64,000 nucleotides of DNA from Strigamia acuminata (Eukaryota). The notes beneath the pieces are model-generated. The model was not told where the DNA came from. It ran no database searches and was given only the letters and a program-made list of their open reading frames with translations. Shown here piece after piece: positions 398 to 31,342 of the stretch; within the stretch, counting starts at the first letter, position 1; every line of letters starts with the position of its first letter. The DNA lies in NCBI GenBank assembly GCA_949358305.1, contig OX442314.1:15934001-15998000 (forward strand), in the 5' to 3' direction. Position numbers and translations under genes: made by a program.

Positions 398-3846
<3,449 letters not shown>

Positions 3847-3850
3847 TATG

Positions 3851-3998
3851 ATTTCAAATTAGAGTAATGAAAATACACCGAATAAAGACACTCGACGCTT
3901 CATACAACAAGAAATAAAGAAATCCCGCCACTATATATTCTGTGGCCAATCAGAAAGATTGGATTCACCAGACATCGACTTGCGTCATAAAAATGGCG
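3851..3998. promoter_or_regulatory. Bidirectional MCM3/TSEN34 promoter with E2F-like site, CCAAT boxes and YY1-like motif
   Basis: Under 200 bp separates the divergent start codons. AATCCCGCCA (E2F-like) at 3921-3930, CCAAT at 3946-3950, ATTGG at 3958-3962, AAAATGGCG near 3990-3998. Confidence 0.55.
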
Positions 3999-4033
3999 AC
4001 ATCCTCATCCTGCCGCCAGGTAGTACATGTGCG

Positions 4034-5123: not shown

Positions 5124-5305
5124 ATTAAAATTCTATTTTGTTTTAATAACTCTTTACATTATTTACAATACAATAATCAACTTAACTCACTTGTCAGTGT
5201 TTTTTTAGTGGATGCAAGTTAAAAACATGATAAGGGGATAAAATTCATGAGCTCAATCTCATAAGGTTAAAAGAAAATGAATTAAAGCACATAAAATCCA
5301 TATTG

Positions 5306-6597
5306 TTATAGTCGTAAGCGACGTAAATTTCTTCTGCATCCTATCGATCCTATTCGCAGACTCGGTGTAGAAGAGCTGTGACTTCCTCCACCACTACCAG
5401 CAGCGGAAGCCGACATAGAGACTACGCGGCAAATGTGGTTGGCTGTGAACTGGCATTGGCAACGAGAACAAAATCGAAAACAACACGTAGGTGAGATACA
5501 ACTCGCTACTGGCGACGAGGGAAGCACTTGACTCGGACTACAACAACGCATACATTTCACCAAGTATGCACCGTTAGGTAAATGTTTAGCAGCCTTCAAT
5601 CAAAAAACAATAAAATGTTAAAAACACATTTTTACGAAATAAGTCAAACAATTTACTTCTACAAATCGCTCAAAATTTGTAGGTTCCGATCTCGATTCAA
5701 CCGTCGGAACTGGAAAGGGCCGGTTGCTATTATTTAGTGGTGTACACTCTCCAGAACGTGGTGGAACCGGTGGCGGATATCTCTAAAAAATTAAAAATCA
5801 AATTCTATTCAAATTAAAATGTATATACAGTATGTCGTGCCAAGATTTACCGTTTTTGGATTCTCTTTATTTAATACTAGTATTGCCAAAAATAATCGTC
5901 TTTTTTCATTCGCATTTTTATCGTTCTTGCAAAGTTGATTCCAAGTTTTGCTCACGCAGCAAACTGCACTTAAGTTTTCGCCGTTTAAATGCGAGAAAAT
6001 CTTGGATATTATATGCGGAAACGGTATTAAATCATTCAAAATGTCTTTAGTTTCTTGTGGTTTGGACGTGTTACTGTCGTTGTTCGTTAATTCGGGGTCT
6101 GAATTTCGTCGTTTTATAACTCCCGATCCTAATTTGTCTTGAGTATCGCGGTATAGGACTCGTTTACAGAAGGATTTTCGCGTGAATGGCGTACCCGTGT
6201 CGTGAAGGCTTAAACTTCGTCTATTCAATTTTGCCTGGGAAGATTTGATGGGAGATGGTGGCAAAGACGAGTAACCGCTGTCTTGTGTCGGAAGCCGCAA
6301 TTGTAGGAAATTTTTTGGTGTAAATTTTTCATATTGTCTGCCCTCAAACATGACAAATGAGCTTTCATCGTGTTCTGCCTGCAAAGTAAATTTATATATT
6401 TAGAAATTTTTTAGATAAGAGGGGGGATTAACTATTTCCCACGCGACCAATTTCCCTCCTTCCGTTAAACCTCGTCATGTTTTCAAGTTAAAAAATATAT
6501 AACGGTTTTAAAATTTGAAACTTTGTTTTCTAATTATTTTAAATGCAGTACTAAACAGTTGAGAAAATAATGTGCGAAATCTTACATTGAGTTCCAT
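5306..6597 (-). CDS. FBXO5: Emi1/Rca1 (FBXO5/FBXO43-like) APC/C inhibitor
   Basis: Exon 1 MELN|gtaag. DSGYSS beta-TrCP degron, F-box (PFPHIISKIFSHLNGENLSAVCCVSKTWNQLC), Cys-rich zinc-binding region (CMRC..C...CCFRFCSRCQC..H.C) and RL tail RRNLRRLRL*. Confidence 0.88.
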
Positions 6598-6673
6598 GGC
6601 GGTAATAAACCTTCTGTCTTCTCAGTTTTCTGTTCTATCCACTATGCATATGGAGCTTTGAGAATGAACATTG

Positions 6674-6808
6674 TTCAAATTCGCCGCTAACTGGTTTTCT
6701 TCAAGAATTTAAGCCAATGAGAATTGCGGTTTTGTTAGTTACAGACCTATGCCAACCAATAAGATGTTTTGCGCGCTTCTTCGTCCGACTTAGGCGCGAT
6801 GTCATTGG
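6674..6808 (-). promoter_or_regulatory. CDE/CHR-like element plus three CCAAT boxes upstream of the Emi1-like gene
   Basis: Minus strand reads TAGCGG-cgaa-TTTGAA at 6689-6674. CCAAT at 6714 and 6756, ATTGG at 6804. Confidence 0.55.
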
Positions 6809-6985
6809 CCAAAATATGACCATTTCTGCACAGAACTAAACTGGAAAACGACAATCACATATATAAGCGCCTCTACTGGCAAGGATTGAACCACATTAGA
6901 CATTTCATGCTTGATTTCATGTTATAGTTAGTTCGTTCCTTATAATCGGCTTCATAATTTTCACATTTCATAGTTTGTGATTGTG

Positions 6986-7286
<301 letters not shown>

Positions 7287-7502
7287 TTGCGACGACGTTG
7301 TACAGATTTGCGAATGAAGCTTACTTCCGAAGAATATTTAAATACAAATCGCAGCAAAGAATTATCTTGATGTGTACTGATTAAACACTGAAAAATACAA
7401 TCAAATTGCCACACGAACCGAACGTTGTTATATAAAAAAAAGTTTATTTGGTCTTACAACATTATTTCCATCATTCAAATGTGATTGATTACGATCACTT
7501 AA

Positions 7503-10500
7503 CTACTGCGCAGCTTTGCTGATGCTAAACAATTTATTATTTCCGAATAAAGCTGTTGGTAATTCAATTTGTGATAAAATGCTCTTAGGAATTTGTCCAG
7601 TTGGAGGGGCTTTACTATCCGGGATGATTTCACTCACAAGCTACAAGATATAAGAGTTATACCATAATTCATAATCTAAATGCATATAATTTAGCAAAAA
7701 TACGTACATTCTTTATGTCAAACCACCCGATGTCCTCTCTGTTACTGAGCAATGCGGACAAATGTTCTTGAGTCATGTCTGGATAATTATGAATCAACCC
7801 CTACAAAAAAATTACATTGTAAACTATTATTTGCAATGTTTTAAACAACTTACAGAAAGTATCAGCGGCAAAATTTCTTTATCCTTCACTTTGAGTACCT
7901 CAGCAAAACGAACTAAAACATCGGTTAGAGAATCCGCCTAAAATTTAAAAGAACAAGTTAATTCTAAGTTTTATTTAAGTTTTAATGAATGCAAAAATAC
8001 ACCTTTGCCAAATGTGGTGCCAAGTTTTTGATGAGATTTTGTAGTTGCTCCACTTCTCTTATAACTTTTTCAGCGCAATCCTTTCTTTCTTCAAAAGATG
8101 AAAATGTGACGCGCCTTTAAAAAATAAAATAAAATAAAATAAAAATAAATTTTTGAGTGTTTATACTCGAATAAAAAATTCTCTCTTATTTCGAATACTT
8201 TTGAAGCATCGCCGAAATATAATTCTTGCATATTCTCTTCTTAATTTCAGCGATGACATCGTCGTGATTTTTCGGTCTTAAATGTTTATAGTCTTGATGA
8301 AAATCTTCCACTGTGACGCAGATTGTATCCATAGGTGTGTCGCTACTCAGCCATTTCCTAGTCATCAGATCTAGGAAATGTGGTCTGAGATCCATACACA
8401 TCTCGTCCAATAGATAGTTGCACCTATTCATACATCCAATCAAAAATCCATCGTTATTTCCATCATTTAACTCACGTTTGTTCACGAAGCTTCTTGTATG
8501 TCTTTATCAAAGAATCAAACTGACGAACAGCTTCGTCATCGTGCATTCCAGGTTTCCAAATTTGATCTTTCAATTGATGACATAATTCAATGAAATGCAA
8601 ACAATTGTTAACGGCTGCAACCTAAGCAATCAAATTCGTACTCGTTACACAAAATACAAATATAAATTCAATTCAGATTCAAATTCACCATGTAATGAGT
8701 AAAATATTTTATGCTATTTCTGTTCTGCATACAGGTATTTTTGTATTCGATAATTGCTTCTAAAATTACCAAAAATAAACAAAAACATTAAATTAACGAC
8801 AAAATAAATAAACTTGTCGTCATTACCCAAATACATGGTTCCTAAATTGGTCATTTCCGTCATAGACATGCGAAATATTTTAACTACTAAATCAAATCCT
8901 ATCGTTTTGGCAACGGTAAGCTATAATAATAGGAATCGATCAATTTCTTTAAAAATATTTCTGGGTTAATATGTGCACATTTACATTTTGTTCCACCATT
9001 TGAAACACTACAATAGGCAACGTGGTTTGATAACATCCTTCGCCATCTGACTCTGGTTCGATGTCGCGAAACCAATCTTGTTTCTCAGATTCGATAGTTG
9101 TTTTCATCCATTGTGAAAAATTTTGCTCCATTTTGCTTATATATCTGGAATTATGAATTAATTAACGACGTAAAAAGGCAATAATAAAGATTACAAAGTT
9201 ATTACTTAGCCTTTAAGCTCCCTACAGTTCTATCGTCCAACAATGGGCCGACATCTTTAATATTTACATTAATATCGGGATGTTTCAACAATTCGGGACT
9301 CCTAAATTCGGAAACAACTTAACAATTTAATTTAAAAATAAACGATAACTCACTCGTAAGTTTTCAGCCACATAAGAATGCTTATGTACTCATCATTTTC
9401 AAGCCCACACGCAATTATATCTAATAACTAATTTTAAAACTAATAAATTTAATTTTTAATTCAAATATTTTGACACCCTTACGTGTTTAGATAAACAGTT
9501 GTGATACATTTTCACATATTTATTGACAATTTCATAACGAGGTGGAAAGCACTGCACACACAAAGTCTAAACGAAATGAAATAATTATAGACAACAAATT
9601 GTAGTCACTGAACAAAAATAGCTCGTTATACTTTGACCACGCGAAGATCTTCTAAAATCACTTGCCGTGTAATTTCCAAATGTCTTACTAACCACATCGT
9701 ATTTTCATCACGTTCTCCGTACTGATTTTTTTCAAGCCTAGGAATTAAAACGACATTCATTGGTCATTAATAAACCGCACTGGTTGTTGTTTATTTACCT
9801 GTCTTGGATTGTCTGTTCCATGATTACGAAAGCCTTCTTTTTCCATTCCCTCGTTCTTCCTGGAGGAAGGAATCCGGTTTGTTTTTCTAGCTCTAATGAA
9901 AGTTGATCGCTTTTCTCTTCTCTCTCTATAATGCGCATCGCCGTTACGATAAGTTTAGGGTCGCTGCGCACAGTTTGCAACACTCGTTTCAAAATCGACC
10001 ATAAATGCTCGCTCAGCGATTGATATAATTCATCGACACCGGAAAAATACACTTTGAGTTTCTGCAATTACAAACGATCAAATATTATCTGCCCACTTTC
10101 TAAAAAATAATCATTCGACTAACAATTTGATCACTTTTGTTTTGATCTGGAAGTTTGTACATTTGAAACAATAAATCATTCCGTGAATTTTCTAATTCCG
10201 CTAAACTGCAAATAAAAAAAATAAAAAAAATAAAAAAATCAATAAATTTACTTTACTGTCGATGAAAATTATTACCAATAATGAGCTTGTAAATATTTGC
10301 CTTCGTTGATCCAAACATGAGTTTTCTTAACACTTTCTGGAACTGTAAAAATATTTTTCAAATGCTCCATGGCCACGGCATTCTGAAATCGTAAATATAA
10401 ACGAATAAACATTAAAATTGTCGCACATAATCGCGAAGAAAGATGTTCACCTGGAAGTAATTTAAGTGTTCTTCCCTTACGTCTTCCAACTGCTCACGCA

Positions 10501-12935: not shown

Positions 12936-15900
12936 ATGTCTCCACATATGGCCATCATTTTTCGGAGAAAAAAAAAACTACGCCGGACAATTCACCACTT
13001 AATGAAAAATGATGCCCATAAACCTCAATGCAATTTAACTGGCTTGGATGATTTCATAAATAGTAAAAACCGTTCGAGCAAGTATCAAGTCTTTTGGCAA
13101 ATTTTGTTCTCATTTTGCATATGCACGCTCATGTATCAGACACACGATAGAATAATGCATTACTTAAGTCGTCCTATGGCTGTTGATGTAATGGCTAAAT
13201 CAGAAGAGGTCGTTTTACCCCATTTAATGTTCTGCAGTGGCAATACAAAAGAATTGATCAAGCTTTGGAATATGAGTTTTGTTAAAATCGAACCTGTAAA
13301 AGATGATTTCGGTCTATCGAGCTTTTCCTGCGTAAACATGGTGAAAACTCTCATGGCAAACGAAACCTACGACATGGATGAACTTTGGAAGGCAACCAAT
13401 ATGACCAAAGAAATTGTTAGCGTAAAAGTGAAAGTAAATAAAATGGTCAAAAGTATTTTTAACACTATATATAAACCCTATTCTTTTTTCTTAGGGATAT
13501 TCAAAAGAAGCATTTGTACAGACAGAAATTGATAGTGGATATGGAATGTGCGCTGCATTTAAATTTCGTAAATATACAAGCATTGTGGTTATTTTTAAAA
13601 TATAAAATTAAACCTTTCTATTACAACAATTAGGTAAAAATTCAACTGAATCGTTTGTTGGAAAATCACTAACCGTAACTTTCAAAAAATATCTTGACTA
13701 CATATGTTATACAGCCATGTATCATGTACAAGTATACAGTATATCTTACACAGTTCATAAATTACATATACCATTTCTAATTTTGCTTAGATTGTACTGT
13801 CAGTAAATGATTTTGGAAAAAACTACTACAGAACAGCAGAATTCAGTGGTTCAACAGAAACTTTAAATATCAGATATAATAAAGTAATACTTAAAAAAAG
13901 TTGCTTTTTCATAGAGCAGATCAAAAGATCAACTGTGTATACTGTAAAATCGTAAACAATACCTTTTCTGCCTTGTGGCTGCACCTTGCATTTACATTAA
14001 TGAACCGATTGTGTTATTGACAATCAATAATGTTTAATGAAAAAGCAAAGTTCTGCGCTTATTGTTGTTCCTATGAAAATGCACCTAACAGAGTAATAAC
14101 TTAGAATTTTATTGTAACTTTTATCTTTTTACATAATTTCAGTATGTATTTCTTAATTCATCTAAAAATCCTTGCTCCGGCGAAAAGGAATACAGAGATT
14201 GCTATTTCAACTGCTTGTCAAAAAAATTTCAAAATCTCCTCACTTGCAGGTAAACTCCCTGATTCTATGTCGTATACTGCATGTGTCTCCAAACGGGCTA
14301 GATTATGGAGTTTTGTATTAACTTGAAGCCTACCATTTTTTTTTAACCATCCGATTTGACTAGCTGCATTCAAAAATTAAAATAACAATTTTAGTGTATT
14401 TTAAGTTTTAACAAGAGTTTAAATAGGAAATGATGTCATTTTTAGTTTAAAATTGAAGTAAAACACAAAATATTTTAGTTTTTGAATGCAGCTAGTGTTA
14501 GAAATATGTTACGAAAATGGGTCCGACATGGATTTTTGCAAAAGACATATTCTTAAAAATTTCTATGCGTAGAAATAAATTAAATTGATTGGCACGCCAA
14601 TATTCACCAAGATATCATTAGTTGAACGACGGAAATTAACATTGATGATATGTTTTTTTTGCAAAAAACCATCAAAACCATTTTCCCCACTCTAAAAAAT
14701 TTTTAAGCTGGAACCATGTTACATTTAATTTTATATTCTTTTAAAGGTATCCTTTTATTACAAATTTGGACATAAATCTACCCCTATGTGAATGTTCAAA
14801 TGCCACAGCACAACAATATGGTATTGTGATGAAACTACTTGAAACGTCAGATCCCATGGCCACTTGCTCATGTCGCCGGCCCTGTCAACAACTGACCTTT
14901 ATACCGTACATTGATTCAGGCACAGCAGATGATGAAATAACAACATCAATAACTTTAGAGATAACTAATGAGAAAGTTAACGTATTTGAAGAACGGTACA
15001 CATACGATGTTATTGCTTTGCTATCAGATCTAGGAGGCAATTTGGGCCTGTTTCTCGGTCTATCACTAATCTCATTAACAGAAACCAGCTGGTATCTATT
15101 TTGGGTTTCATCAACTATTCGCAGGAAAAAACACTTTAATAAACTGTATCATCTTTATGTGAAATGCAGGAAGAAAATAATTGAACGAGATGAGCAAATT
15201 AAAACGAATAGAATCTTGTTAATGCTTCAGCTAATACTGGTTATAATTAGTATAGGATTTACTGTGTACTACTTGAGAAACCGTTTAAACTACTACCTTG
15301 AAGAACCAGTAACAAAAATCGTTACCGTAGTTCCGAGGCAAAATACTGAATATCCTTCTATCACAATCTGTGGTGAAAATAGAAATAAAGAGATGGATGA
15401 AGCCAGATCAAATGTGCTTAATCAGACAAACCAAAAGTGCGATAAATTATCGCCGTGGCAACTTTTCAGTAGCGATTTCTCGTTAGAGGAAATATGGAGT
15501 GTGCTTAGTGTTCACGACACAATGAATGTTAACGACGACATGGCTAAGGTATTCGGCTAAAATGTGAAATTAATATTTTTGTAACCGTTTTATATTTGTA
15601 GCACTTGACTGGATATCCAACATTGCTAAACATAACAAAGACTCTTACTCCACTTCCTTTTGGTCATTGCTCACAAATGCATGCAGGTAATTCCACTAAT
15701 CTCATCTTTTAGGGTGTTTGTGTTTTTGTATTTTTAACAAAACAAAAACACATACATCTAAAACACTTGAATCACGACTTATTGAATACGGCTCTAGCTG
15801 GTGATTGTTTTACTGATGTGTTAATCTGTACTTGGTTCTTAGCTTGATAATATTTTTTTTATAGAAAAAACAAACGACTTGACAGTTCCCTTTTTACTCT

Positions 15901-17009
15901 CATTGGAATATTTGCTTCCTTCTGAAGTATGTTACCAGGACCTATGGGTATGAATAAAATAAAGCACAAATAAAAAATATAATTATTTTTAATTGAAATA
16001 ATTTTCAGTATTTTCTCAATCACCCAGAAGAGGAAATTAACATTTTGGCACCTTCATCTGTAATCTATGGGGCTACAAATGTAGTAAAGCTACGAATATT
16101 TAAGGTAAATAAAATAGTTATATACCTATACCTTATATGCTTATCTACATACTGGCTTAATTTTATGACATTATAGACTATACGAAGAAATGGAAAGCGC
16201 AATCCTTGTGAAGAAAACAAAACTGTTTATTTGAAGTGTAGAAATGCTTGCATACAAAATAATTTACTTCACATGATAAATTGCAGGTACATTTAAAAAA
16301 AAGTCTAATAGAGGCCCGCGGAATATTCAATTTTCTTCAAAAAATGAAAAATTTTTGTATAAAAGACTGAATATTTCCTTTAAAAAATTGAGTGTTTCCT
16401 TTAAAAAACTGAATGTTTCCTTCAAAAAATTGAATATTTCCTTTAAAAAATTGAATATCGCGTCAAAAAATCAAACATTTCATAAAAAATCGGGCCTGTA
16501 ACCTGTGCGTCCGTGCCGCTATTGGAGCCCCGCGTACAATTAAAAGATGTACCGTATTCAGATTATATAACCAAACTCTGGGTATTTGTAAATTCATGTT
16601 ACGGTTTATTTCTGTTCCTTTCAGATTGCCATACATGCCATCACCTAATTTGCCACTGTGCAACAAAGTAGAAGACGTCATGCGCAGCCATTTAATGTAC
16701 TTAAATAATTACAATTCGAATCAAAAAGCATGCAAATGTAAACTACCTTGTGAAAAGACATTTTACGAATCTACAATGCATGGAAGTAAAGTGCCTGTTC
16801 CCTATTTCACATTTGTACAGCTTGAATTAGCTGATACTTTCATAGAGAATTTTATAGAGAAACAAAAATACCCTTTATCGCAATTTTTAAGTGATATAGG
16901 TAGCATTGTAGGATTAGCGTTGGGAATGTCTTTACTCTCTTTATACACTTGCTTATTAAACAGTTATAATTCGTTTAGACGTGATATTGATAGTTTAAAA
17001 AAAAAATAA
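12936..17009 (+). CDS. Tandem two-subunit DEG/ENaC (ASIC/pickpocket-family) channel, 11 exons, 4 TM; paralogue 1
   Basis: Repeat 1: TM1, LPHLMFC, YGMC, Cys-rich thumb CSCRRPC, TM2 LLSDLGGNLGLFLGLSLISLTE. Same exon continues into repeat 2: TM1, YPSITIC; later exons give FGHC, CKCKLPC and TM2 FLSDIGSIVGLALGMSLLSLY. All 10 introns are GT-AG and in frame. Confidence 0.9.
14361..14494. mobile_element. MITE with TAGCTGCATTCAAAAA terminal inverted repeats (intron 5 of channel 1)
   Basis: TAGCTGCATTCAAAAATTAAAATA...TATTTTAGTTTTTGAATGCAGCTA. A second copy with the same interior lies at 34545-34680. Confidence 0.8.
16361..16458. repeat. Degenerate ~21-bp tandem repeat in the last intron of channel 1
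   Basis: 4-5 copies of aaaaaattgaatatttccttt-like units. Confidence 0.6.
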
Positions 17010-17100
17010 AACATTTCTTCTTTTGCTTGCGAATTAAAATGTTAAAAAAAAATTTCACATACCGGTATCAATTATAATATAATGTCAACCAATTTCAGCA

Positions 17101-17733
17101 CAATTTTTCACAAATAAAATGTCAATTTTTCACAAATAAAATGTCAATTTTTCACAAATAAAATGTCAATTTTTCACAAATAAAATGTCAATTTTTCACA
17201 AATAAAATGTCAATTTTTCACAAATAAAATGTCAATTTTTCACAAATAAAATGTCAATTTTTCACAAATAAAATGTCAATTTTTCACAAATAAAATGTCA
17301 ATTTTTCACAAATAAAATGTCAATTTTTCACAAATAAAATGTCAATTTTTCACAAATAAAATGTCAATTTTTCACAAATAAAATGTCAATTTTTCACAAA
17401 TAAAATGTCAATTTTTCACAAATAAAATGTCAATTTTTCACAAATAAAATGTCAATTTTTCACAAATAAAATGTCAATTTTTCACAAATAAAATGTCAAT
17501 TTTTCACAAATAAAATGTCAATTTTTCACAAATAAAATGTCAATTTTTCACAAATAAAATGTCAATTTTTCACAAATAAAATGTCAATTTTTCACAAATA
17601 AAATGTCAATTTTTCACAAATAAAATGTCAATTTTTCACAAATAAAATGTCAATTTTTCACAAATAAAATGTCAATTTTTCACAAATAAAATGTCAATTT
17701 TTCACAAATAAAATGTCAATTTTTCACAAATAA
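17101..17733. repeat. 22-bp minisatellite (CAATTTTTCACAAATAAAATGT) x ~29
   Basis: Head-to-tail, apparently identical units with no spacers. Confidence 0.97.
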
Positions 17734-18242
17734 TGTATTTACACCAATTGCAAAATAAATAAAAGCGTGCAAACAATTAACTTGATTTTTCATTCATTGA
17801 ACCTAGGACGATCAGTTGATCGACCTAGATTGAATTTACTGCAAAATCAGTTAGTAAAATCCTACAAATACATTTTAAAAACGAGTAAATTTTTTTACCC
17901 ATCGACTATTCTCCAAAAAACGATTACTGTAAGCCCTCATGTCATAAAACTGAACAAATAGTCTATAATTATGAAAGTTTTGACTTTGTTTGCTCTTAGT
18001 AAACTACTCTAATACTAATATTTATCCACTTGATAAACAAGTAACATAAACAGTTATTAAGCGCTCACTTTTTAAAAACCTTGTTTGTTTTTTTTTACTA
18101 AATTTAGCTCTTTACATAACGTCGCACTCACATAACAACACAACGCATAATAATTATTTCAGGCCAATAAACAACTCAGAATTGATTGATAAGCGAAAAA
18201 CATAATAATTGTTCTTCACTCTGGACAAGTTAGCAGTAAAGC

Positions 18243-21200
18243 ATGCCTGCAAACATTTCTATCAGCATTCAGCAAAAAAGAAAACTACGGCTGACAATTC
18301 GTAAATTCTTGAAAGATGATGCAAACAAACCGAGTTGCGATCTAACTGGTTTGGATAATTTTATAAGCACTAAAATACGTTCGAGCAAGTATCATGCGTT
18401 TTGGCTACTTTTGTTCTTATTTTGCACATGCATGCTCACTTATCAGACACATGATAGAATGATGCATTATTTAAGTCGTCCTGTAGCCGTCGACGTAACT
18501 AGCACGTCCGACAATGTCAAATTGCCAGACTTGTTGGTCTGTGGTAGCAACACAAAAGAAATGGTCAGACTTTGGAACAAGACTTTTGTAAAACTTGATA
18601 CCGCAAAAGAGGAATTCAGTCTTTCGAGCTTTAAATGCGTAAACATGATGAAAACTCTGATGGCAAACCAAACCTACAACATGGATGAACTGTGGAAGGC
18701 TACCAATATCACCAAGGAAATTGTTAGCATTAAAATGAAAGTAAAAAAAAAAAATTTAAAATTTTATTTATTATAAAAATAGAACTTTAAACATTATTTT
18801 ACGCACAGGGATATTCAAATGAAAGTGTCGTTCAGACAGTAAGAGGCGATGTGTATGGAATATGTTCAGCGTTTAAATTTGGTCTGTACATTACACCTTA
18901 TGTTTATAGTTTTTAATTATTTTAAAAAATGATCTATTTTGATTACGTGTGTGGACTTGGCCCACCAAAATGTTGGCTGTTACCTAACTTTCAGCCAAAT
19001 AGACCAACATAGGTGTTCCTAATTCATACACAAATTTTGTTTAGCCACTAACTCAAGTAAATCGTTTGTTGGGAAATCCCTAACCGTGAAGTTTGAAAAA
19101 ATAAACGATGACGTGTGTCCTTCAGCTATGTACTATGTAATTTGAATGCGCTTCTGTTGGTTAAAAATATGCAATTCATCATTTTAGTCCTTCCGTTTAC
19201 TTAGATTGGATTCGCATATAATGATTTTGGAAAAAAATTCTTTTCAACATCAAAATTTTCCGGTACAACAACAAAAATCAATCTTAGTTATGACAAAGTA
19301 AAATTCGAAACCAAAAACCAACTTAGATCAAAATATGCCAACAGTTTGACTTCTACTTACATTTTCAGTACATATTTCTAAACTCATCTGAAAACACGTG
19401 CTCCAGCGAAAATGAATACAAAGACTGCTACTTCAAATGCTTAGCAAAAAAATTAAGAGACAAACTAACCTGCAGGTAAAGACTGAATTTAATGCCTATA
19501 GTGATCATCATAAGCGTAATATAACTTTTCATATTCTTTTCAAGACTCCCTTTTATTAATAATACGATAACAAATCTACCTCTATGCGAATGTTCAAACA
19601 CCACGCATGAACTATACGCTAAAGCACTTGAAATAATTATATCAACGGACGCAATTGCTGATTGTTCATGTAGACGTCAATGTCAACAACTAAGTTTTAC
19701 ACCAAATATCGATGCAGCTTTAGCGGAAGATGAAAAAATTACATCAATATCCTTAGAAATAACTAATGAGAAAATGTACGTGTACAACGAAAGATACTCA
19801 TACGACGTTATTGCTTTACTGTCCGACTTGGGAGGCAATTTGGGCCTGTTTCTCGGTCTGTCACTAATCTCTTTTAGTGAAACCATTTGGTATTTATGTT
19901 ACAAAATGTTACAAAGTATTCGCAAAAAAAGACACGTTTATAAGATTCAGCGTTTGTATGAGATATGCAAAAAGATAGTGATTGCACAACATGAGCCAAT
20001 TAAAACAGATGGAATCTTATTGAAACTCAAGCTAATACTCGTTGCAATTAGTACGGGATTCACTTTATACTACTTGAAAAATCGTTTAAATTACTACAAC
20101 GATGAACCTGTAACAAAAACTGTCACCGTAGTACAGCGGGCCTATACTGAATTTCCTTCTGTCACCGTCTGTGGTGAAAATAAAAATGGGGAAATGGACA
20201 AAGGCCGATTGCGTTTGATGGAACAGACAAACAAAATATGCAGTAACATATCGCCCTGGAAATTGTTTAATGACGAATTGCCATTGGAAGATATATGGGA
20301 TTCACTTAATGTCCACGAAAATATTAATCTTGACGGCGATATGACTGTGGTATGTGGCAAAAACAAAATATATTCTACAAAGTTCTCATTGTTTTAGATT
20401 TACAGCATTTGAATGGATACGCAACTAAGCTAAATGTGACGAAAAAGCTTATTCCACTTCCTTTTGGCAATTGCTCACAAGTGCATGCAGGTAATTTAAC
20501 TTACAGAAGTTAATTATAGATGTTAATTACCTAATGATTCCGTTTTTTATAATATTTTTTAGATAATTCAAAGGAATTGACAGTTTACTTTTTAGTTTCA
20601 TTGGAATTTCTTGAACCACCAGAGGAATGTGAGCAGGAACTATGGGTACTGGCACGATGAAACCATTTGCACAAAAAAGACTTAATCTTTGAAATTAAAA
20701 CACTAAAAGCTAAGTAAAGAACGGCAATAATAGCAGGATTAGCTAAAAAAAAATTAGGTGTTTTTGTTTAAGTGTTTTTAATGTAAACACCATTTAAAAC
20801 TTGGGTTTTTTTGTCACAAAATAAGTTTACTTATAGAATAATTTTGAATTACAATAATTTCCAGTACTTTATGAACCCACCAGAAGAGGACGTTGATATT
20901 TTGAGACCAATGTCGGGAAACTATGGGTCGTCAAACGTAGTAACGATCCGAGTATTTAAGGTAATAAACATTTGCCTCAAACAGAAAAATAAAACAAATC
21001 CTTATACCAACTTAATTTATCAATAGACTATACGAAGAAATCTACAGCGCAAACCTTGTGAAATAAACACTGTTAATTATTTCAAATGTATTCGTGAGTG
21101 CAAGCAAAACAATTTATTTCAAATGCTTAAATGCAGGTAAAAAACGTTCACTCAAATTTTGCTTGGAGTAAACCAAACGCTTGTTTCAGATTACCATACA

Positions 21201-21586
21201 TGCTGACAACTAATTTACCTCTGTGTAACACAACAGACGATGTCACTAATGCCCATTCAATGTACTTAAGGAAATATAACTCGAATCAAAAAGAATGTAA
21301 ATGTAAACAACCTTGCACTAAAACATTTTACCAAACTAGCGTGCATGAAATTGCAATCCCTGTTAAGTTTTACACATTTCTACGGTTTGGATTATCTGAT
21401 AATTTCATAGAAACTATAACGGAGAAAGAACAATATCCAATTGCACAATTATTAAGCGATGTAGGCAGCATTTTAGGATTGACTTTGGGGATGTCATTAT
21501 TGTCTTTATACATTTGCATTCTAGAGACTTATAATTGGTTTCGATCCAATATAACTAGTGGATTTGGCCGTTCAAAAAGACAATGA
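18243..21586 (+). CDS. Tandem two-subunit DEG/ENaC channel, 11 exons, 4 TM; paralogue 2
   Basis: Same exon structure as paralogue 1. LPDLLVC, YGIC, CSCRRQC, TM2 LLSDLGGNLGLFLGLSLISFSE, then in the same exon second TM1 and FPSVTVC; later FGNC, CKCKQPC, TM2 LLSDVGSILGLTLGMSLLSLY. Frame intact throughout. Confidence 0.9.
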
Positions 21587-21609
21587 AATATTACATTTTA
21601 CGTTTACAG

Positions 21610-21753
21610 TAGTTTCATTGGAAAAGTTAGTTCAAAATTGCTATTTAAACAATGTGCGCATGCGCAATGCCGCCATTTAAGTTAGATCGAGACAACTCTC
21701 AGTCAAGCAGTTTAAAATGCTGTTTAATCGTACGGACTTTTCGAATGCAGCTA
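21610..21753. mobile_element. Short MITE-like element with degenerate TAGCTGCATTC-type ends
   Basis: TAGTTTCATTGGAAAAGT...ACTTTTCGAATGCAGCTA (15/18 inverted match). The interior is related, in reverse orientation, to the 23511-23686 element. Confidence 0.55.
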
Positions 21754-22052
21754 GTAGTTTTTTAAAATTTTAATGTACCGTGTATACCAATTACAATAGC
21801 ACCTAAGAAATTTTAGCACTACTTTATAAAATTTGTCATTAAAATAAAAGTTAAAATTATACCGTACTGAATTTATATAATGGCAAAAAAAAGAAAACTT
21901 GTAGTTGTAGAGTTAAGTTCATTTCCATTAACAAAATCCCTACTACCCCTACTACCATAAAATTTTCAACACATAATAAATGCATTATTAAATACTGATT
22001 TATGTCAATAGCAGCAAAATAAATTTTAAAAGAACCTCGAGACTAATTTCAA

Positions 22053-24321
22053 CTACAAGATACTACATCCACAGCAACACTTTTGAGGATAGTTAGGTGC
22101 GTACACTTTGTTTTCAAAACCATATACGAAAAAATAATCCGTATTTTCTTTCCACGTGTAATACACTTGAGTAACTGGTACAATTCGAACTCTGTGTCTC
22201 TGAAAGAAAGAGAGAGAGAGAGAGAGAGAGACTATTTTGATCTCTTCATTCTAAGATGAATTCTAGGCTTAATCAACAACAACTACTTGGTTGCCGTTGC
22301 TTATCGCTACGTAGAATTTACTTTCCGAAATGTTTTATAAAATTTTACACCTTACTTGGAACAGATGCAAATAAATATCCTAAGAAAAGTAAACATCTAA
22401 CCCTTCCTTATTTTCCAACTTTATAAATCAGCCGCATTGCTCACACGCCGTTGCTTTTCGTCCACGAATCCATTAAACAACGGCGCGCATTAGCAATACA
22501 AGAATTAGTCACCAGATTTCTCTGTAGTCATCGTCAGAGAAAGCATTTTTTAAAAAAAATACCGGTAGCTCGTTCGTAGGTAAGGAATTTATATTTATTT
22601 GCTTCTGTTACAGTGACAGAAAAAAAAAATACCTGACGGATAATTTTTTCCTCAGTATAATCTATATTATGCTGTTGAACTAATTTTGAAGATGCGATAT
22701 TGACAGCTTGGTCTGGGAAATGGTTTATCGGCCAAACCTAAACACCAAAGAATTTATTTTATATTTAATAATTACTCTACTGGTGATGATCACGACGATT
22801 ATGATTATTTTATTTTAATACTCTCGGTAAATCCTCTTCAAAAGCTAACTGGCCACTAACTGTGCGAACTAAATCGTCAGGCAATGACGTGCGTTCTACG
22901 ATGTAATCGCTTACATGATTTTTCCTAACAAATAAAAAATCTTTAATTTATATTTTATTAAAACTGAACAATTTACCAAGACAGACGAAGTTGATTATAA
23001 TGTTTAAGCTTTCCCTTTCCGCTACATGAGTCGCACTCTATTTGTCCATGTCCATCGCACCGTACGCACCTACATATAATCAGTATTGAAAAATGCCAGT
23101 TTCTTAGAGTTTCATCTTCCAATATTGTCCTACCTCGTTTTCGTATGACCGTGACAAGAAGAGCAAGTTTCATCATTATATCGGCGTCCAGTTCCAGAGC
23201 AAGACGAGCAATTTACCTTTCAATTAAATCAGTTATATCAGCTCTCAAAAGCTTCAACTTGTATATTTTATGATCTCACTTGTCCATCACCATAACATTG
23301 TGTACATCTTCGTCTACCGGTAGCAGCACAACGATGACATGATTTTACAGATGCCGTATGGGGCACTTCAGTCATCATTTTAGTTTCATTGTACGCAGAG
23401 GGAGGTGAAACTGCAATTTCCCATGCCCTAGGGGCTGGTCCGTTCGCGCTTGAATCGATGGTTTGGCCTACAAGAAAATTATAAAACGTAATAAACAAAT
23501 TAAAACACATTAGGCGCATTTATAAAGTCATTTAGACGAAACAGCATTTTAAACAACATATTTTAACTGCTTGTCTCGATCTAAATTCAAAATGGCGGCC
23601 GATTTAGTCTGTTTTCATGCGCACTATATTTAAAGAAGAAAACATGTTTAACTGCTAATTAAACTTGTATTTAAAAATTGCGCCTACTAAAATTATTATA
23701 CTACCATAATATGGCTCACTCGTCCAACGAGTTTGGCGCGATTCTCCAAAAGTTTCCAAAGTATACTGAAATTTGTAAGTGTCAAAAGTGTATAGAAAAA
23801 AAATGGAGTAATGTGTGAATTACATGGAAAGCTGAAGTGTTTTCAATACTTTGAAAAATCATTTTTTCAGCTGCTGATTTGCCATAACAACAATGCTCGG
23901 AAACGAAATTTAGAAGAGCTTCTCTAGCTTGATCTTCGGTCAGTGCTGGATAACTTGTAAAACTGCTTCTTGAAGGTGGTTGACCATGGTATGCGTGGTC
24001 ACTAGCCGGGGGTGAAAGTGATGCTAAATTTGATTTATTAATTATAGCACGACTTGCATTTTTTTATTTTACTTTTTGTTGTATAACTTACCAACATCGA
24101 ATGAAACGTTTTCATAACCATGAACTTTATCCATCAGCTCAACAGGAGGCGCTGATGCGAGAAGATCAACAGGTTCTTTACTCTCACCAGAGACGCCATT
24201 ACTAGCATCTAAATTTATTTATAATATAATTAATATCTTATACAATATATTTTTTCCATTGAGATTTAATTAGTTTACCTGAAGCCATTTACTCCGATGG
24301 ATGAGTTAATGTAACATTCAT
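22053..24321 (-). CDS. SSUH2-like protein, copy 1 (10 exons; TAA at codon 11 followed by in-frame ATG at 24288)
   Basis: SAPPVELMDKVHGYE, EDQAREALLNFVSEHCCYG, YTLETFGESR, EVPHTASVKSCHRC, CxxCxGxG repeats, YFFVYGFENKVYAPNYPQKCCCGCSIL*. Confidence 0.85.
22209..22232. repeat. (GA)n microsatellite in the last intron of SSUH2-like copy 1
   Basis: About 12 GA units. The same site is shorter in copy 2. Confidence 0.85.
23511..23686. mobile_element. MITE with TAGGCGCATTT terminal inverted repeats in an SSUH2-like intron
   Basis: Inverted ends are visible. Also present at 30534-30704 (13-bp perfect TIR) and absent from the short equivalent intron of copy 3. Confidence 0.75.
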
Positions 24322-26219
24322 TGGTGGTGGATTTCTTAATACAAATAGAAAGTGAAATATGCAAGCTTTTTATCTAAACATTACAATGGTAAATAAAATA
24401 GTCACGGAATATGTAAAAAATATTTTACCGAATCAAATTATGTTGGTAATTATTTTGGATATTTTGATAGATTGCACTGAAAAATTACCAATTATTAAAT
24501 ATTAGGGTTCTCTTCTTTTCCTTAACACGATGTTGAATTTAATGTTCACCCTTTGAAACTCCAATGGGAAAAATTTAAAAATGTTGAATGCCAATATTCA
24601 TGTTATTTAAATTTACTTTTTCTGGCTATTTAGTTACTCAATAGTCAATACGTTATGTTTTAGCAAATTTACCTACTTACGCTGTGTGAGCCATCGTTTA
24701 CATTCAAAATAGCTTAGGGGGAGTACGAAATATCTTATCAAAACAACGTGCTTTTGTTGTGATAAAAATGGTTATGTAATGTGCAGATGTGATTGCACTC
24801 AAAAAATTAATTGCAGGTACTGTTAACCCTTCTAGAAAATGTTTTGCCCAATACAATTTTGACTAAAAAAAGATGGGTTCACATGAAATGTTGATTACCT
24901 TCTTATTCTTACTCCATTCCAATTTTATCAATGTGATTCAATCAGAAAAGACAAACATTTACCAACCGTGACATAACGTGCCCAAAACTAATTACATTTA
25001 TAGATTTTGCTATGAAACAACTAATTAGTGGAATTAAAGATTAGTGTGACCGTGTGTTGCCACACTTAATTCTGTTGTAGATATTAATGGCACACATAAA
25101 CAGGCAGTTCAAAATGATAAGTGATTTTATTACAAAAGATTCGAAGTTTAAATACAAGTTATACAACACAAGGGATTATCCAAAATACACTTGATTAGTT
25201 AAAGTTACACTAATACGTTGACCTCGCGGTTTATCGTTTTATTGTCCACGCGACGTTCATGCCCAGTGGCGGTCAACAGCAACATTGGCGGTCAGTAAAA
25301 CTCCAACAAATTCCAAACACTCCTAAATGCTCACACAACCACAACAATCTGTGTAAAAATAAAATAAACACATGGTCATTTTACAATTTGTCAAAATTTT
25401 TACTACAGCTATCAACAATATAAGTCATAATAGTTGGCATAAAAATAAGAACGGTAGTATCTTACTTCTTAATTGCCAGCTACCAAGCCAAGCTCTAATA
25501 AAAGAGATATTCTTTTGGTTCTATTGACAAATAAATTCCGCTACTAATTAAAATTAATTGGAACTACCCTCAGGTGAAAGAGGAAATCAGCACATACTGA
25601 ATGCCAGTGAATATTGTTCAGAAAAGAAAACAGTAATGGTTCAATCGCGCAAAATTTGATGTGCTTTCAAAAAAAAATTACCATATTTTAATTAGTCTTA
25701 TTTTACTTCTCAATTATCACAAAAATCATAAGTATTTTAAAAATCTAAAACTCAAAACTTTTTGCTCGGATGCGAGCTGCGTAGATAAACTGTATTATCG
25801 ATTATAAAGAGCGTGTACAATTTCTGTATGCAAACAAAGCACTTGGTATTGAAAATCATTTTTCGCATAAATAACAAAAATATTTAAAAAAAATCCGATT
25901 TCAAGTAACTATAGAAAAAAAAAGCAACCAAGCAAACTAAAGCACTTATAATAACAAGTCCGCACTCCGTAGACATAATGTTCGCTGCTCTAATATTTAC
26001 CTTGACTAAAGAAACACAAACGAAATACTTACGTAATTTTCAGACACTTTTTTTTAACCTTGTTTATTTTAAACTGCTATTTGCTGTACTTGTATGTACA
26101 TAGCGATACTCAAAATGTTTGATAAACAATATGAAAAGCCCAAGTTGACTATAAACTAAGTTTAAACCAAAAAACTGAAAACTATCTTCTAGTTAGAACT
26201 TGACTTGTAGCAATACAAC

Positions 26220-26403
26220 ATGTCTCCACATATGGCCATCATTTTTCGGAGAAAAAAAAAACTACGCCGGACAATTCACCACTTAATGAAAAATGATGCC
26301 CATAAACCTCAATGCAATTTAACTGGCTTGGATGATTTCATAAATAGTAAAAACCGTTCGAGCAAGTATCAAGTCTTTTGGCAAATTTTGTTCTCATTTT
26401 GCA
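26220..26403 (+). pseudogene. Truncated exon-1 fragment of channel paralogue 1
   Basis: Matches 12936-13119 (MSPHMAII...ILFSFC), then breaks into duplicated upstream sequence. Confidence 0.9.
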
Positions 26404-27029
26404 ACATTTACAAACATTTACCAATCGTGACATAACGTGCCACCAAAACTAATTACATTTATAGATTTTGCTATGAAACAACTAATTAGTGGAATTTGAG
26501 ATTAGTGTGACCGTGTGTTGCCACACTTAATTCTGTTGTAAATATTAATGGCACACGTAAACAGGCAGTTCAAAATGATAAGTGATTTTATTACAAAAGA
26601 TTCGAAGTTTAAATACAACTTATACAACACAAGGGATTATCCAAAATACCCTGATTAGTTAAATATACACTAATACGTTGACCTTGCGTTTTATCGTTTT
26701 ATCGTCCACGCGATGTCCATCCCCAATGGCGGTCAACAGCAACATTGGCGGTCAGTAAATCTCCAACAAATTCCAAAACACTCCTAAATGCTCACACAAC
26801 CTCAACAATCTGTGTAAAAATAAAATAAACACATGTTCATTTTACCATTTGTCAACATTTTTACTACAGCTCTCAACAATATAAGCCATAATAGAACAGT
26901 ATCGTACTTCTTAATTGCCAGCTACCAAGCTAAGCTCTAATAAAAGAGATATTCTTTCTGTTCTGTTGACAAATAAATTCCACTACTATCATTAATTGGA
27001 TGTACCCTCAGGTGAAAGAGGAAATCAGC

Positions 27030-27384
27030 AACAAAGCAGAAGACATCATGCGCAGCCATTTAATGTACTTAAATAATTATAACTCGAATCAAACAGCATG
27101 CAAATGTAAACTACCTTGTGAAAAAACATTTTACGAATCTACAATGCGTGTAAGTAAAGTGCCTGATTCCTATTTCCCATTTGTACAGCTTGAATTAGCT
27201 GATACTTTCATAGAGAATTTTATAGAGAAACAAAAATACCCTTTATCGCAATTTTTAAGTGATATACCGTATAGGTAGCATTGTAGGATTAATGTTGGGA
27301 ATGTCAATACTCTCTTTATACAATTGCCTATTAAAAAGTTATAATTCGTTTAAACGTATTATTGATAGTTTAAACAAAAAATGA
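27030..27384 (+). pseudogene. Last-exon fragment of channel paralogue 1 with frameshift
   Basis: Matches 16662-17010. A small insertion after SDI (gatataccgtataggtagc versus gatataggtagc) shifts the frame before TM2. Confidence 0.9.
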
Positions 27385-27716
27385 AACATTTCTTCTTACG
27401 ATTACCGTAAGCCCTCATGTCATGAAACTGAACAAATAGTCTATAATTATGAAAGTTTTGACTATGTTTGCTCTTAGTAAACTACTCTAATACTAATATT
27501 TATCCACTTGATAAACAAGTAACATAAACAGTTATTAAGCGCTCACTTTTTAAAAACCTTGTTTGTTTTTTTTTACTAAATTTAGCTCTTTACATAACGC
27601 CGTACTCACATAACAGAACGCATAATAATTATTTCAGACAAATAAACAACACACAATTGATTGATAAGCGAAAACATAATAATTGTTCTTCACTCTGGAC
27701 AAGTCAGCAGTAGAGC

Positions 27717-28669
27717 ATGCCTGCAAACATTGCCATCAGTTTTCAGCAAAAGAGAAAACTACTGTCACGGGCAGGCTACCCACCCTCTTTTTATTTTCAT
27801 TTTTTAACTTAGACTAATCCATCTTAACTTATTGTCCCTTTATTCTTTTATCCTCTTTTGATTTGATGACTCATTTTTCTATAATAAATGTGCGAATAAG
27901 ACTTTGCGCATCCTATTATTCTCAATAATCGAATTCCTATATCTACCTTTCACCCCTTGATTTACCTTTACATGATCCGGTCACATGACCAGGTTAACTT
28001 AATGTCATCTAACCCAACTGAAATCACTTCTCTACCCACTCTCGACTGATACACATGTCTTAGACCAGGGGTCGGCAAGTAATTTTAAGTGGGGTCCGGA
28101 TACTATGGAAAATTTTTTATCGAGGTCCGGAAAAGAAACGCTTTTAAAAACCTTGCTAAAAACTTAAGAAAACGGAAAAAAAAACACTTAAAAACCAAAT
28201 AAACCCCCCAATCAACACACACAACCCAAAAAATACCAATGAAACCGAAAAAACACGAAAAAAAAAAACAGGAAAAACAAGAAAAAACACTGAAAAACCA
28301 AAGAAACCGAAGGAAAAACGTCGCTAAAACGTCACCGCGGTACAAGTTTCGACCTTTCGCGGTTCGGATACGGAGTTCTGATCCCGTCGAATATGAAATA
28401 ATGTTGAGTCACTGTGTGACCGGACACCTTTAATTGCCTGATGTCAAAATTTGAGATATAGTTAAATTAATTTCTAACATTCAAATTAATCGTGACACTA
28501 CGTCTGACAATTCGTAAATTTATGAATGATGATGCAAACAAACCAAGTTGCGATCTAACTGGTTTGGATAATTTTATAAGCACTAAAATACGTTTGAGCA
28601 AGTATCATGCCTTTTGGCTACTTTTGTTCTTATTTTGCACATGTATGCTAATTTATCAGACACATGATA
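27717..28669 (+). pseudogene. Exon-1 fragment of channel paralogue 2, interrupted by a solo LTR and truncated at a MITE
   Basis: MPANIAISFQQKRKL / RLTIRKFMNDDANKPSCDLTGL...YQTHD matches 18243-18456. Confidence 0.9.
27763..28497. mobile_element. Solo LTR (735 bp), probably Ty3/Gypsy-like
   Basis: Termini TGTCACG...CGTGACA with 4-bp target duplication CTAC on both sides. The empty site AAACTACGGCTG is in the intact paralogue at ~18282-18293. Confidence 0.9.
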
Positions 28670-28671
28670 TA

Positions 28672-28954
28672 CAGGGTGTTCTAAAAGTCTGGTCCCCTCC
28701 AAATATATCCTCAGCAATTGCATCTTGGCCAACTTTGATGAAGCGATCGTATAGGAAGTTTGGTGAGAGCAATCCAATGATGTCATCAAATTTGACCTTG
28801 AAGGCCATTTTCAAGGTGACTAAGATAAATTGGATAGTACTAATTTGATGGTGCTCTAAAACTTTCTAATTGAAAATTTTTCTCTAACCTGATTGGTTTA
28901 GAAGTTAGCAAGTTAATGACCATTTGGAGGGGACCAGACTTTTAGAACACCCTG
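28672..28954. mobile_element. Tc1/mariner-type MITE (283 bp)
   Basis: 33-bp perfect TIR CAGGGTGTTCTAAAAGTCTGGTCCCCTCCAAAT, flanked by TA at both ends. Confidence 0.92.
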
Positions 28955-29070
28955 TAGACTACACCTACTACCATAAAATTTTTAACACACACAATAAATG
29001 CATTATTAAATACTGATTTATTTCAATGGCAGCAAAATCATTTTTAAAAGAAACTCGAGACTTATTTCAA

Positions 29071-31342
29071 CTACAAGATACTACATCCACAACAACACTT
29101 TTGAGGGTAGTTAGGTGCGTACACTTTGTTTTCAAAACCATATACGAAAAAATAATCCGTATCTTCTTTCCACGTGTAATATACTTGAGTAACTGGTACA
29201 ATTCGAACTCTGTGTCTCTGAAAGAGAGAGAGAAAGAAACTATTTTGACATCTTTCATTCAAAGAAGAATTCTAGGCTTAATCAACATCAACTACTTGGT
29301 TGCTGTTGCTTATCGCTACATAGAATTTACTTTCCGAAATGTTTTTTAAGCTTCTATATCTTATCTGGAACAGAAGCAAATAAATATCCTAAGAAAAGTA
29401 AACATCTAACCCTTATTTTCCAACTTCATAAATTAGCCGTATTGCTCACACGCCGTTGCTTTTCGTCCACGCGTCCATTAAACCAAGGTCGACCTTGCAT
29501 TAAACAACGGCGCGCATTAGCAATACAAGAATTAGTCACCAGATTTCTCTGTAGTCATCGTCAGAGAAAGCATTTTTTTAAAAATACCGGTAGCTCGTTC
29601 ATAGGTAAGGAATTTTTATTTACTTGCTTCTGTTACACTGACAGAAAAAAAAATACCTGACGCATAATTCTTTCCATAATATAATCTGTATTGTGCTGTT
29701 GGACTAATTTTGAAGATGCGATATTGATAGCTTGGTCTGGGAAATGGTTTATCGGCCAAACCTAAACACCAAAGAGTTTTTTTATATTTAATAATTACTC
29801 TACTGATGATGATCACGGCGATTATGATTATTTTATTTTAATACTCTCGGTAAATCCTCTTCAAAAGCTAACTGGCCACTAACTGTGCGAACTAAATCTT
29901 CCGGTAATGACGTGCGCTCTACGATGTAATCGCCTACATGATTTTTCCTAACAAATAAGAAATCTTTAATTTATATTTTATTGAAACTGAACAATTTACC
30001 AAGACAGACAAAGTTGAATATAACATTTAAGCTGTCCCTTTCCGCTACATGATTTGCACTTTATTTGTCCATTTCCATGGCAGTTTAAGCACCTACATAT
30101 AATCAGTAATGAAAAATGTCAGTTTCTTAGAGTTTCGTCTTCCAATATTGTCCTACCTCGTTCTCCTTTGACCGTGACAAAAAGAGCAAGTTTCATCATT
30201 AAATCGGCGTCCAGATCCAGAGCAAGACGAGCAATTTACCTTTCAATTAAATCAGTTACATCAGCTCTCAAAGGCTTCAACTTGTATATTTTATGATCTC
30301 ACTTGTCCATCACCTATACACGTTGGACATCGTCGTCTACCGATAGCAGCACAATCATGACATGATTTTACAGATGCCGTATGGGGCACTTCAGTCGTCA
30401 TTTTAGTTTCCTTGTACGCAGCGGGAGGTGATACTGCAATTTCCCATGCCCTAGGGGCTGGTCCGTTCACGCATGAATCGATGGTTTGGCCTACAAGAAA
30501 ATTATGAAATGTAATAAACAAATTAAAACACATTAGGCGCATTTATAAAGTCATTTAGACGAAACAGCATTTTAAACATTTTAAACTGCTTGTCTCGATC
30601 TAAATTCAAAATGGCGGCCGATTTAGTCTGTTTTCATGCGCACTACATTTAAAGAAGAAAACATGTCTAACTGCTAATTAAACTTGTATTCATAAATGCG
30701 CCTACTAAAATTATTAGACTACCAATGTATGGCTCACTCGTCCAACGAGTTTGGCGCGATTCTCCAAAAGTTTCCAAAGTATACTGAAATTTGTAAGTGT
30801 CAAAAGAGTATAGCAAAAAAAATGGAGTAATACGTGAATTACATGGAAAGCTGAAGTGTTTTCAATACTTCGAAAAACCATTTCTTCAGCTGCTGATTTG
30901 CCATAACAACAATGCTCGGAAACGAAATTTAGAAGAGCTTCTCTAGCTTGATCTTCGGTCAGTGCTGGATAACTTGTAAAACTGCTTCTTGAAGGTGGTT
31001 GACCATGGTATGCGTGGTCACTAGCCGGTGGTGAAAGTGATGCTAAATTTGATTTATTAATTATAGCACGACTTGCAGTATTTTTTATTTTACTTTTTGT
31101 TGTGTAACTTACCAACATCGAATGAAACGTTTTCATAACCATGAACCTTATCCATAAGCTCAAGAGGAGGCGCTGATGCGAGAAGATCAACAGGTTCTTC
31201 ACTCTCACCAGAGACACCATTACTAGCGTCTAAATTTATTTATGATACAATTAATATCTTATACAATATATTTTTCCCATTGAGATTTAATTAGTTTACC
31301 TGAAGCCATGTACTCCGATGGATGAGTTAATGTAACATTCAT
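29071..31342 (-). CDS. SSUH2-like protein, copy 2 (apparently intact, 10 exons)
   Basis: Starts MNVTLTHPSEYMAS. Same exons as copy 1. Ends PQKCCCGCSIL*. Confidence 0.87.

What the first reader, a model, noticed from the sequence alone, without database searches (positions are those of the whole stretch)
12936..21586. Intron phase pattern 0,1,0,0,2 occurs twice in each channel gene: a record of duplication and fusion
Seen: in both paralogues the five introns of repeat 1 (phase 0; phase 1 just after the GxC motif; 0; 0; phase 2 inside Cys-Arg) recur at equivalent positions and phases in repeat 2, although the two repeats are very divergent in sequence. Inference: an ancestral 6-exon single-subunit gene duplicated in tandem, and the last exon of copy A fused to the first exon of copy B (6+6-1 = 11 exons). 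The fusion predates the split of the two paralogues and has stayed open since.
Basis: partly seen in the sequence, partly recalled or inferred. Interest (0 to 1): 0.7.

Follow-up and report, generated by a model that had tools for sequence, protein, structure and literature searches.

The report
Two channel subunits in one chain
Two neighbouring genes, likely from a centipede, are each predicted to encode two subunits of a normally three-part ion channel welded into one protein, an old fusion shared with a family of Strigamia gene models that would need a third subunit from elsewhere to complete its pore.

Summary
Observation confirmed. Genes A (12936-17009) and B (18243-21586) each model as 11 exons with 20 of 20 GT-AG introns, phases 0,1,0,0,2|0,1,0,0,2, at matching positions in two DEG/ENaC units only ~22% identical. 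TM2 of unit 1, a ~38-residue linker and TM1 of unit 2 lie in one open exon, so the join is not a modelling choice; both units are under purifying selection (dN/dS 0.27, 0.45). The fusion is far older than the A/B split: 17 of 22 related database proteins (9 of the 22 named Strigamia maritima) show the same junction span, and first and second units form separate clades (SH-aLRT 95, 97). Unit 2 mostly lacks a conserved TM2 glycine. Whether one gene duplicated or two diverged neighbours fused is unresolved; no RNA was available. Most likely product: a four-TM two-subunit chain that forms an asymmetric 2+1 trimeric cation channel (inferred). Three-unit chains turned up in a shrimp and on unnamed contigs.

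The parts
12936..17009 (+). Gene A, predicted two-unit DEG/ENaC, 807 aa; exons 12936-13433, 13495-13567, 13634-13725, 13791-13883, 14143-14249, 14747-15548, 15602-15686, 15865-15947, 16009-16104, 16177-16286, 16625-17009
   Evidence: Pfam ASC on exons 1, 6 (two stretches) and 11
14747..15548 (+). Fusion exon of A: end of unit 1 (TM2 about 15009-15098), linker, TM1 and finger start of unit 2, one open frame
   Evidence: junction lies on a 1676-base contig (15032-16707) with no other letters in both DNA runs
15099..15212 (+). Basic cytoplasmic linker of A (aa 406-443), lacking the pre-TM1 L-T-G-L segment that unit 1 has
17101..17733 (.). 22-base tandem array (28.8 perfect copies) between genes A and B
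18243..21586 (+). Gene B, predicted two-unit DEG/ENaC, 812 aa; exons 18243-18740, 18809-18881, 19045-19136, 19205-19297, 19369-19475, 19545-20349, 20406-20490, 20563-20645, 20865-20960, 21027-21136, 21190-21586
19545..20349 (+). Fusion exon of B (linker about 19897-20013)
   Evidence: junction spanned by contigs 19833-21313 and 19833-21900 with no other letters
25286..28669 (+). Broken partial duplicate of the A/B locus: pieces of A exon 1, A exon 11 and B exon 1, 92-98% identical at DNA level

Best explanation
Each gene is predicted to encode one four-transmembrane chain holding two complete, divergent DEG/ENaC subunits joined by a short cytoplasmic linker, the product of an old fusion of two adjacent gene copies, and this chain likely fills two of the three places of a trimeric cation channel, with a third subunit likely recruited from a single-unit relative (2+1). 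Shown: the repeated intron set, the open junction inside one exon, purifying selection on both units, separate unit-1 and unit-2 clades. Inferred: splicing and translation as one chain; origin by loss of the stop of an upstream copy and read-through into the first exon of the downstream copy, followed in this lineage by loss of about 20 linker residues; fixed order of units and an asymmetric pore, because unit 2 has changed its TM2 (D-x-G-S/N/A in place of D-x-G-G); a sensory role like the centipede antennal channels BRTNaC1 and PDPNaC1 (weak inference from relatedness only).
For: Gene models and phases. Junction in one exon, bridged by identical DNA contigs (these may be the assembly's own data). 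dN/dS A vs B 0.27 (unit 1), 0.45 (unit 2), 0.07-0.18 in the three TM segments tested; a neutral 38-codon linker would stay stop-free in both lineages in 4.6% of simulations without indels. 17 of 22 family proteins show a 97-125-residue span from the TM2 G-x-S to the post-TM1 P-x-x-x-x-C, 102-103 in the window; 9 of these 22 were looked up and are named S. maritima. Unit-2 clade 13 rows, SH-aLRT 97; unit-1 clade 9 rows plus one 296-aa fragment, 95. Second G of D-x-G-G kept in 8 of 8 unit-1 and 9 of 9 single-unit motifs found, replaced in 8 of 9 unit-2 motifs. AlphaFold2 of a full relative (P0010): two complete folds, pLDDT 73, pTM 0.69; best solved matches BRTNaC1 and PDPNaC1 by structure and sequence, PDPNaC1 being a homotrimer (PMC12714832). 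Engineered ASIC concatemers form functional trimers (PMC10329638, passages). Single-unit relatives of the same clade exist in S. maritima (P0025, P0041).
Against: No RNA or protein evidence. The linker itself is not clearly constrained (dN/dS 0.73, CI 0.3-1.9) and holds AATAAA/ATTAAA hexamers (common in AT-rich DNA). The S. maritima rows are automated models, many truncated or mis-spliced, and I could not read their DNA. A tree forcing the window-group units together (independent fusion) is 29 log units worse but not rejected (p-AU 0.11). The structure model is of a relative, from 29 sequences; I could not inspect how the two units pack; the window's own fusion exon folded poorly (pLDDT 52). 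The 2+1 partner is untested.
Confidence: 0.6

Rival explanations
1. The two-unit chain is made but assembles without a single-unit partner: two chains make one pore with one unit left outside, or three chains make two linked pores.
For: The two-unit family looks at least as large as the single-unit set among the hits (22 vs 14 rows grouped); many close paralogue contigs lie on the TM segments (up to 17-21 contigs at one site). Parity allows 3x2 = 2x3.
Against: A 38-residue linker suits adjacent places in one trimer better than bridging two (inference); both units stay under selection, which a dangling unit would less need.
Confidence: 0.22
2. The gene is a polyprotein or dual-output locus: the basic linker is cut, or transcripts end or start within exon 6, giving separate ordinary subunits; fusion serves only co-expression.
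For: Linker is Lys/Arg-rich (R-R-K-K, R-K-K-R) and weakly constrained; lower-order by-products occur with engineered concatemers.
Against: No in-frame stop after TM2 in either gene; linker length is held within 97-125 residues across a deep family; a freed unit 2 would lack the pre-TM1 segment; the linker is cytoplasmic, away from furin-type proteases (established topology).
Confidence: 0.12
3. Assembly or annotation artefact, or decaying pseudogenes.
For: A broken partial duplicate lies 4-9 kb downstream; no RNA holder.
Against: Two paralogues at dS 0.70 keep 11 exons and open frames; junction bridged by contigs in two runs; same junction in another assembly's models.
Confidence: 0.04

Closest known systems
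BRTNaC1 (PDB 8YMR) and PDPNaC1 (PDB 9JF7), centipede antennal DEG/ENaC channels (PMC9974506: abstract and first fifth read; PMC12714832: passages and section 10 read)
   Same: Short ~400-aa unit; best PDB matches by sequence (E 2e-8, 1e-7) and structure (E 2e-18, TM 0.68-0.71 by target); no canonical HG motif; the Gly aligned with PDPNaC1 Gly378 and G-x-S are kept in both window units.
   Different: They are single two-TM subunits (PDPNaC1 a homotrimer, gene of nine exons); ~20% identity; here two units share one chain and differ in TM2.
DEG/ENaC/ASIC superfamily (Pfam PF00858), including heterotrimeric ENaC and ASIC heteromers
   Same: Fold, Cys-rich thumb, TM2 signature; heteromeric assembly is usual.
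   Different: Described members are one subunit per gene; subunit pairing here is fixed in the gene.
Engineered ASIC concatemers (PMC10329638, passages read)
   Same: Subunits joined C- to N-terminus on the cytoplasmic side.
   Different: Artificial, three units, full tails plus GSA linkers; this is natural, two units, short linker.
Two-pore-domain K2P, TPC and four-repeat Nav/Cav channels (recalled, no call)
   Same: Internal duplication or fusion of channel subunits with repeat specialisation.
   Different: Those are tetrameric pores where 2 or 4 repeats divide evenly; two units do not divide a trimer.

Membership tests
DEG/ENaC (PF00858) | Profile match above Pfam cut-off | tested here: met
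   exons 1, 6, 11 of both genes score 31-72 bits vs cut-off 23.6
DEG/ENaC (PF00858) | TM1, Cys-rich ectodomain, TM2 with G-x-S in each unit | tested here: met
   TM1 of unit 1 is only weakly hydrophobic in the scan; fold model of relative P0010
DEG/ENaC (PF00858) | Two TM helices, one subunit per polypeptide | tested here: not met
   two units, four predicted TM segments in one frame
DEG/ENaC (PF00858) | Pre-TM1 His-Gly re-entrant motif | tested here: not met
   unit 1 has L-T-G-L, unit 2 lacks the segment; PDPNaC1 also lacks HG
DEG/ENaC (PF00858) | Trimeric assembly and cation current | not testable with these tools
   needs expression, electrophysiology, cryo-EM
BRTNaC1/PDPNaC1-type centipede sensors | Orthology and heat or proton gating | not tested
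   their sequences were not in my trees; only best-hit status
Single-origin two-unit family with S. maritima models | Unit-1 and unit-2 each monophyletic; shared junction | tested here: met
   SH-aLRT 95 and 97, no bootstrap; 93 and 96 with three more rows; independent fusion not formally rejected, p-AU 0.11
Internal duplication of one six-exon gene | Unit-1 and unit-2 clades sister; single-unit relatives with the same five introns | tested here: inconclusive
   support 51, alternatives p-AU 0.53; breakpoints near intron columns 2 of 7, 8 of 47, 4 of 10 vs 1.1, 7.7, 1.6 expected

The most novel reading that the evidence does not exclude
Arthropods have repeatedly evolved natural DEG/ENaC concatemers: a large centipede family of two-unit chains that act as fixed, asymmetric two-thirds of a pore and pick a variable third subunit (a combinatorial receptor code in a blind animal), alongside independent three-unit single-chain pseudo-trimers in a shrimp and possibly in Strigamia, a trimeric parallel to the K2P/TPC/Nav path.
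Probability: 0.4. Interest if true: 0.85.

Novelty: new variant of a known kind. Interest (0 to 1): 0.68.

Why it matters
DEG/ENaC channels are trimers of separate subunits, and physiologists build artificial concatemers to fix their stoichiometry. A natural, old, expanded family of two-unit chains poses a parity problem (2 into 3) with a directly testable answer, gives a ready-made asymmetric pore, and shows the repeat-fusion route of tetrameric channels operating in a trimeric family. It also means that DEG/ENaC counts and trees from automated centipede annotations, where such models look like merge errors, may be wrong.

Tried and rejected
No whole genome is held, so this genome's single-unit genes could not be read. 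No RNA holder listed; the two runs laid behave as DNA (contigs run through introns; no GT-AG joints). Gene-model breakpoints as a proxy for introns in relatives: not above chance; single cases fit (P0041 lacks the stretch between intron columns 4 and 5; P0008 has a 47-aa insert at column 4) but are anecdotal. Word-index search with alignment A2 returned only the query. Atlas search gave only single-unit ASC clusters. Fold of the fusion exon alone: pLDDT 52, unusable. HMM test of linker against N-terminal tails crashed on an option error and was not rerun; the resemblance rests on the printed alignments. No complex prediction was sent: tandem plus a full third unit exceeds the size limit. Trees used 139 units with 250 or more HMM columns from the 150 listed of 304 hits, then 58 and 61 selected rows; shorter fragments were left out. 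Literature: searches listed no paper on natural multi-unit DEG/ENaC; term look-ups in PMC4244043, PMC5203786, PMC8438182, PMC9822975, PMC7067487 (passages only) found none; Vizueta et al. 2020, cited in PMC8438182, was not seen; the exon figure of PMC12714832 (Appendix S1B) could not be read and one supplementary file was not searched. Scan notes: two Naegleria findings, unrelated; none by sequence or place.

Full report
Observation. Setting exons by coordinate gives two stop-free genes on the + strand, A (12936-17009, 807 aa) and B (18243-21586, 812 aa), each with 11 exons and ten GT-AG introns in phases 0,1,0,0,2,0,1,0,0,2. Pfam ASC matches exons 1, 6 and 11 of both, exon 6 in two stretches. 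Splitting each protein in the linker and aligning the four units puts introns 2, 4 and 5 in identical columns, intron 3 one column off and intron 1 three columns off, both beside gaps; on a family HMM they sit at match states 130/131, 159, 189, 221 and 256. Units 1 and 2 are 21-23% identical, A and B 57-61%. The chosen splice pairs rank first in 18 of 20 leave-one-out tests. The introns remain predictions, since no RNA holder was listed.

The junction. Exon 6 (about 800 bases) carries the end of unit 1 with TM2, about 38 basic residues, then TM1 and the start of unit 2, with no intron and no stop; the join is therefore read directly from DNA, and contigs of two DNA runs bridge it without differences (possibly the assembly's own data). 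Both genes end in a stop shortly after the second TM2. Between A and B, dS is 0.70 and dN/dS 0.27 (unit 1), 0.45 (unit 2), 0.07-0.18 in TM segments, but 0.73 (0.3-1.9) in the linker; a neutral linker would stay stop-free in both lineages in 4.6% of substitution-only simulations.

A family, not a one-off. Exon 6 finds a Strigamia maritima model over 98% of its length at 55% identity, which points to a centipede. The exhaustive search gave 304 hits, 150 listed; the ten top hits looked up are all S. maritima, as are P0027 and the single-unit P0025 and P0041. Of 22 proteins assigned to the family, 17 gave a measurable span of 97-125 residues from the TM2 G-x-S to the post-TM1 P-x-x-x-x-C (window 102-103); five did not match the pattern. 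In a 58-row IQ-TREE tree second units form one clade (13 rows, SH-aLRT 97) and first units another (9 rows plus one fragment, 95), with end branches above 1 substitution per site. So the fusion likely happened once and long before A and B split, though forcing the window group's units together is not rejected (p-AU 0.11), the models are automated and several long branches meet.

How it arose. P0011 and P0037 have second units inside the unit-2 clade (96) yet keep in the linker a full N-terminal tail with P-G-L, like single subunits P0025, P0041 and P0072. This fits the last exon of one gene running into the first exon of the next, with later trimming of about 20 residues in the window's lineage (inference). 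What is not shown is that a single gene duplicated: unit-1 and unit-2 clades are sisters at support 51 and alternative pairings are equally good. Shared introns show common descent from a five-intron ancestor, not that fusion followed the duplication at once. A proxy test on model breakpoints was null, and PDPNaC1 is reported with nine exons (PMC12714832; untranslated exons not separable).

How it likely works. AlphaFold2 on the complete relative P0010 gives two full DEG/ENaC folds joined by TM2, a short helix and TM1 (pLDDT 73, pTM 0.69); its best solved matches are the centipede channels BRTNaC1 and PDPNaC1, also the best sequence matches of the window exon. The family is trimeric (established; PDPNaC1 homotrimer), and engineered ASIC concatemers form functional trimers (PMC10329638). 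Two units cannot fill three places. Unit 2 is specialised: the second Gly of D-x-G-G is kept in 8 of 8 unit-1 and 9 of 9 single-unit motifs found but replaced in 8 of 9 unit-2 motifs, while the Gly aligned to PDPNaC1 Gly378 and G-x-S remain in the window's units. I favour one chain plus one single-unit subunit (2+1, asymmetric pore); a partner-free assembly and cleavage into single units are the rivals. None of this is tested, and a sensory role rests on relatedness alone.

Beyond the window. The same search showed three-unit chains: two Halocaridina rubra models and six unnamed proteins of 1245-1307 aa, each on contigs of only 4.2-5.3 kb and each with three full units, hence uninterrupted frames; their units group by position, apart from the centipede clade. 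S. maritima P0005 and P0006 overlap as if parts of a younger three-unit gene, and single two- or three-unit models occur in a midge, a spider and a leech (may be merge errors). Concatenation thus seems recurrent.

Novelty. Nine searches and term look-ups in five genome or family papers showed no description of natural multi-unit DEG/ENaC chains; the library lacks most subscription papers, and the models have lain unnamed in UniProt. Verdict: real; a new variant of a known family; interest 0.68.

Noticed in passing
P0082, P0155-P0159, P0070, P0022 (database proteins): Three complete DEG/ENaC units in one chain (about 1250-1300 aa), in Halocaridina rubra models and on short unnamed contigs: candidate single-chain pseudo-trimeric channels with three different TM2 motifs. 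A related set of ~1030 aa (P0035, P0057, P0118, P0147) has a shortened middle unit.
   Followed up: partly
P0005, P0006, P0008, P0013 (P0005, P0006, P0008 named S. maritima): A second, younger multi-unit group whose units are close relatives of each other (clade support 100), with up to three units per model.
   Followed up: partly
window 25286-30619: Rearranged partial duplicate of the 12-23.6 kb region at 87-98% identity, with broken pieces of genes A and B.
   Followed up: partly
window 17101-17733: Perfect 22-base tandem array, 28.8 copies, between A and B.
   Followed up: no
window about 14360-14497: Very high-copy short element in intron 5 of gene A (depth in the hundreds of thousands; second copy at 34545-34683), possibly a MITE.
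   Followed up: no
window about 22900-34300, minus strand: Three related Cys-rich genes in tandem with C-x-x-C-x-G-x-G repeats (SSUH2-like from recall; two exons tested had no Pfam hit).
   Followed up: no
window about 40100-48100, plus strand: Receptor tyrosine kinase with Ig domains; Trk-like from recall.
   Followed up: no
window about 37000-58200: Many related ~100-aa Ig-like exons without Pfam hit in the two tested: a repeated unannotated domain array.
   Followed up: no
window 61464-63125, minus strand: Retrotransposon gag-like frame with an Ala/Gln repeat.
   Followed up: no
window 400-10500: Housekeeping neighbours: MCM, tRNA intron endonuclease, F-box protein, Sec6.
   Followed up: no
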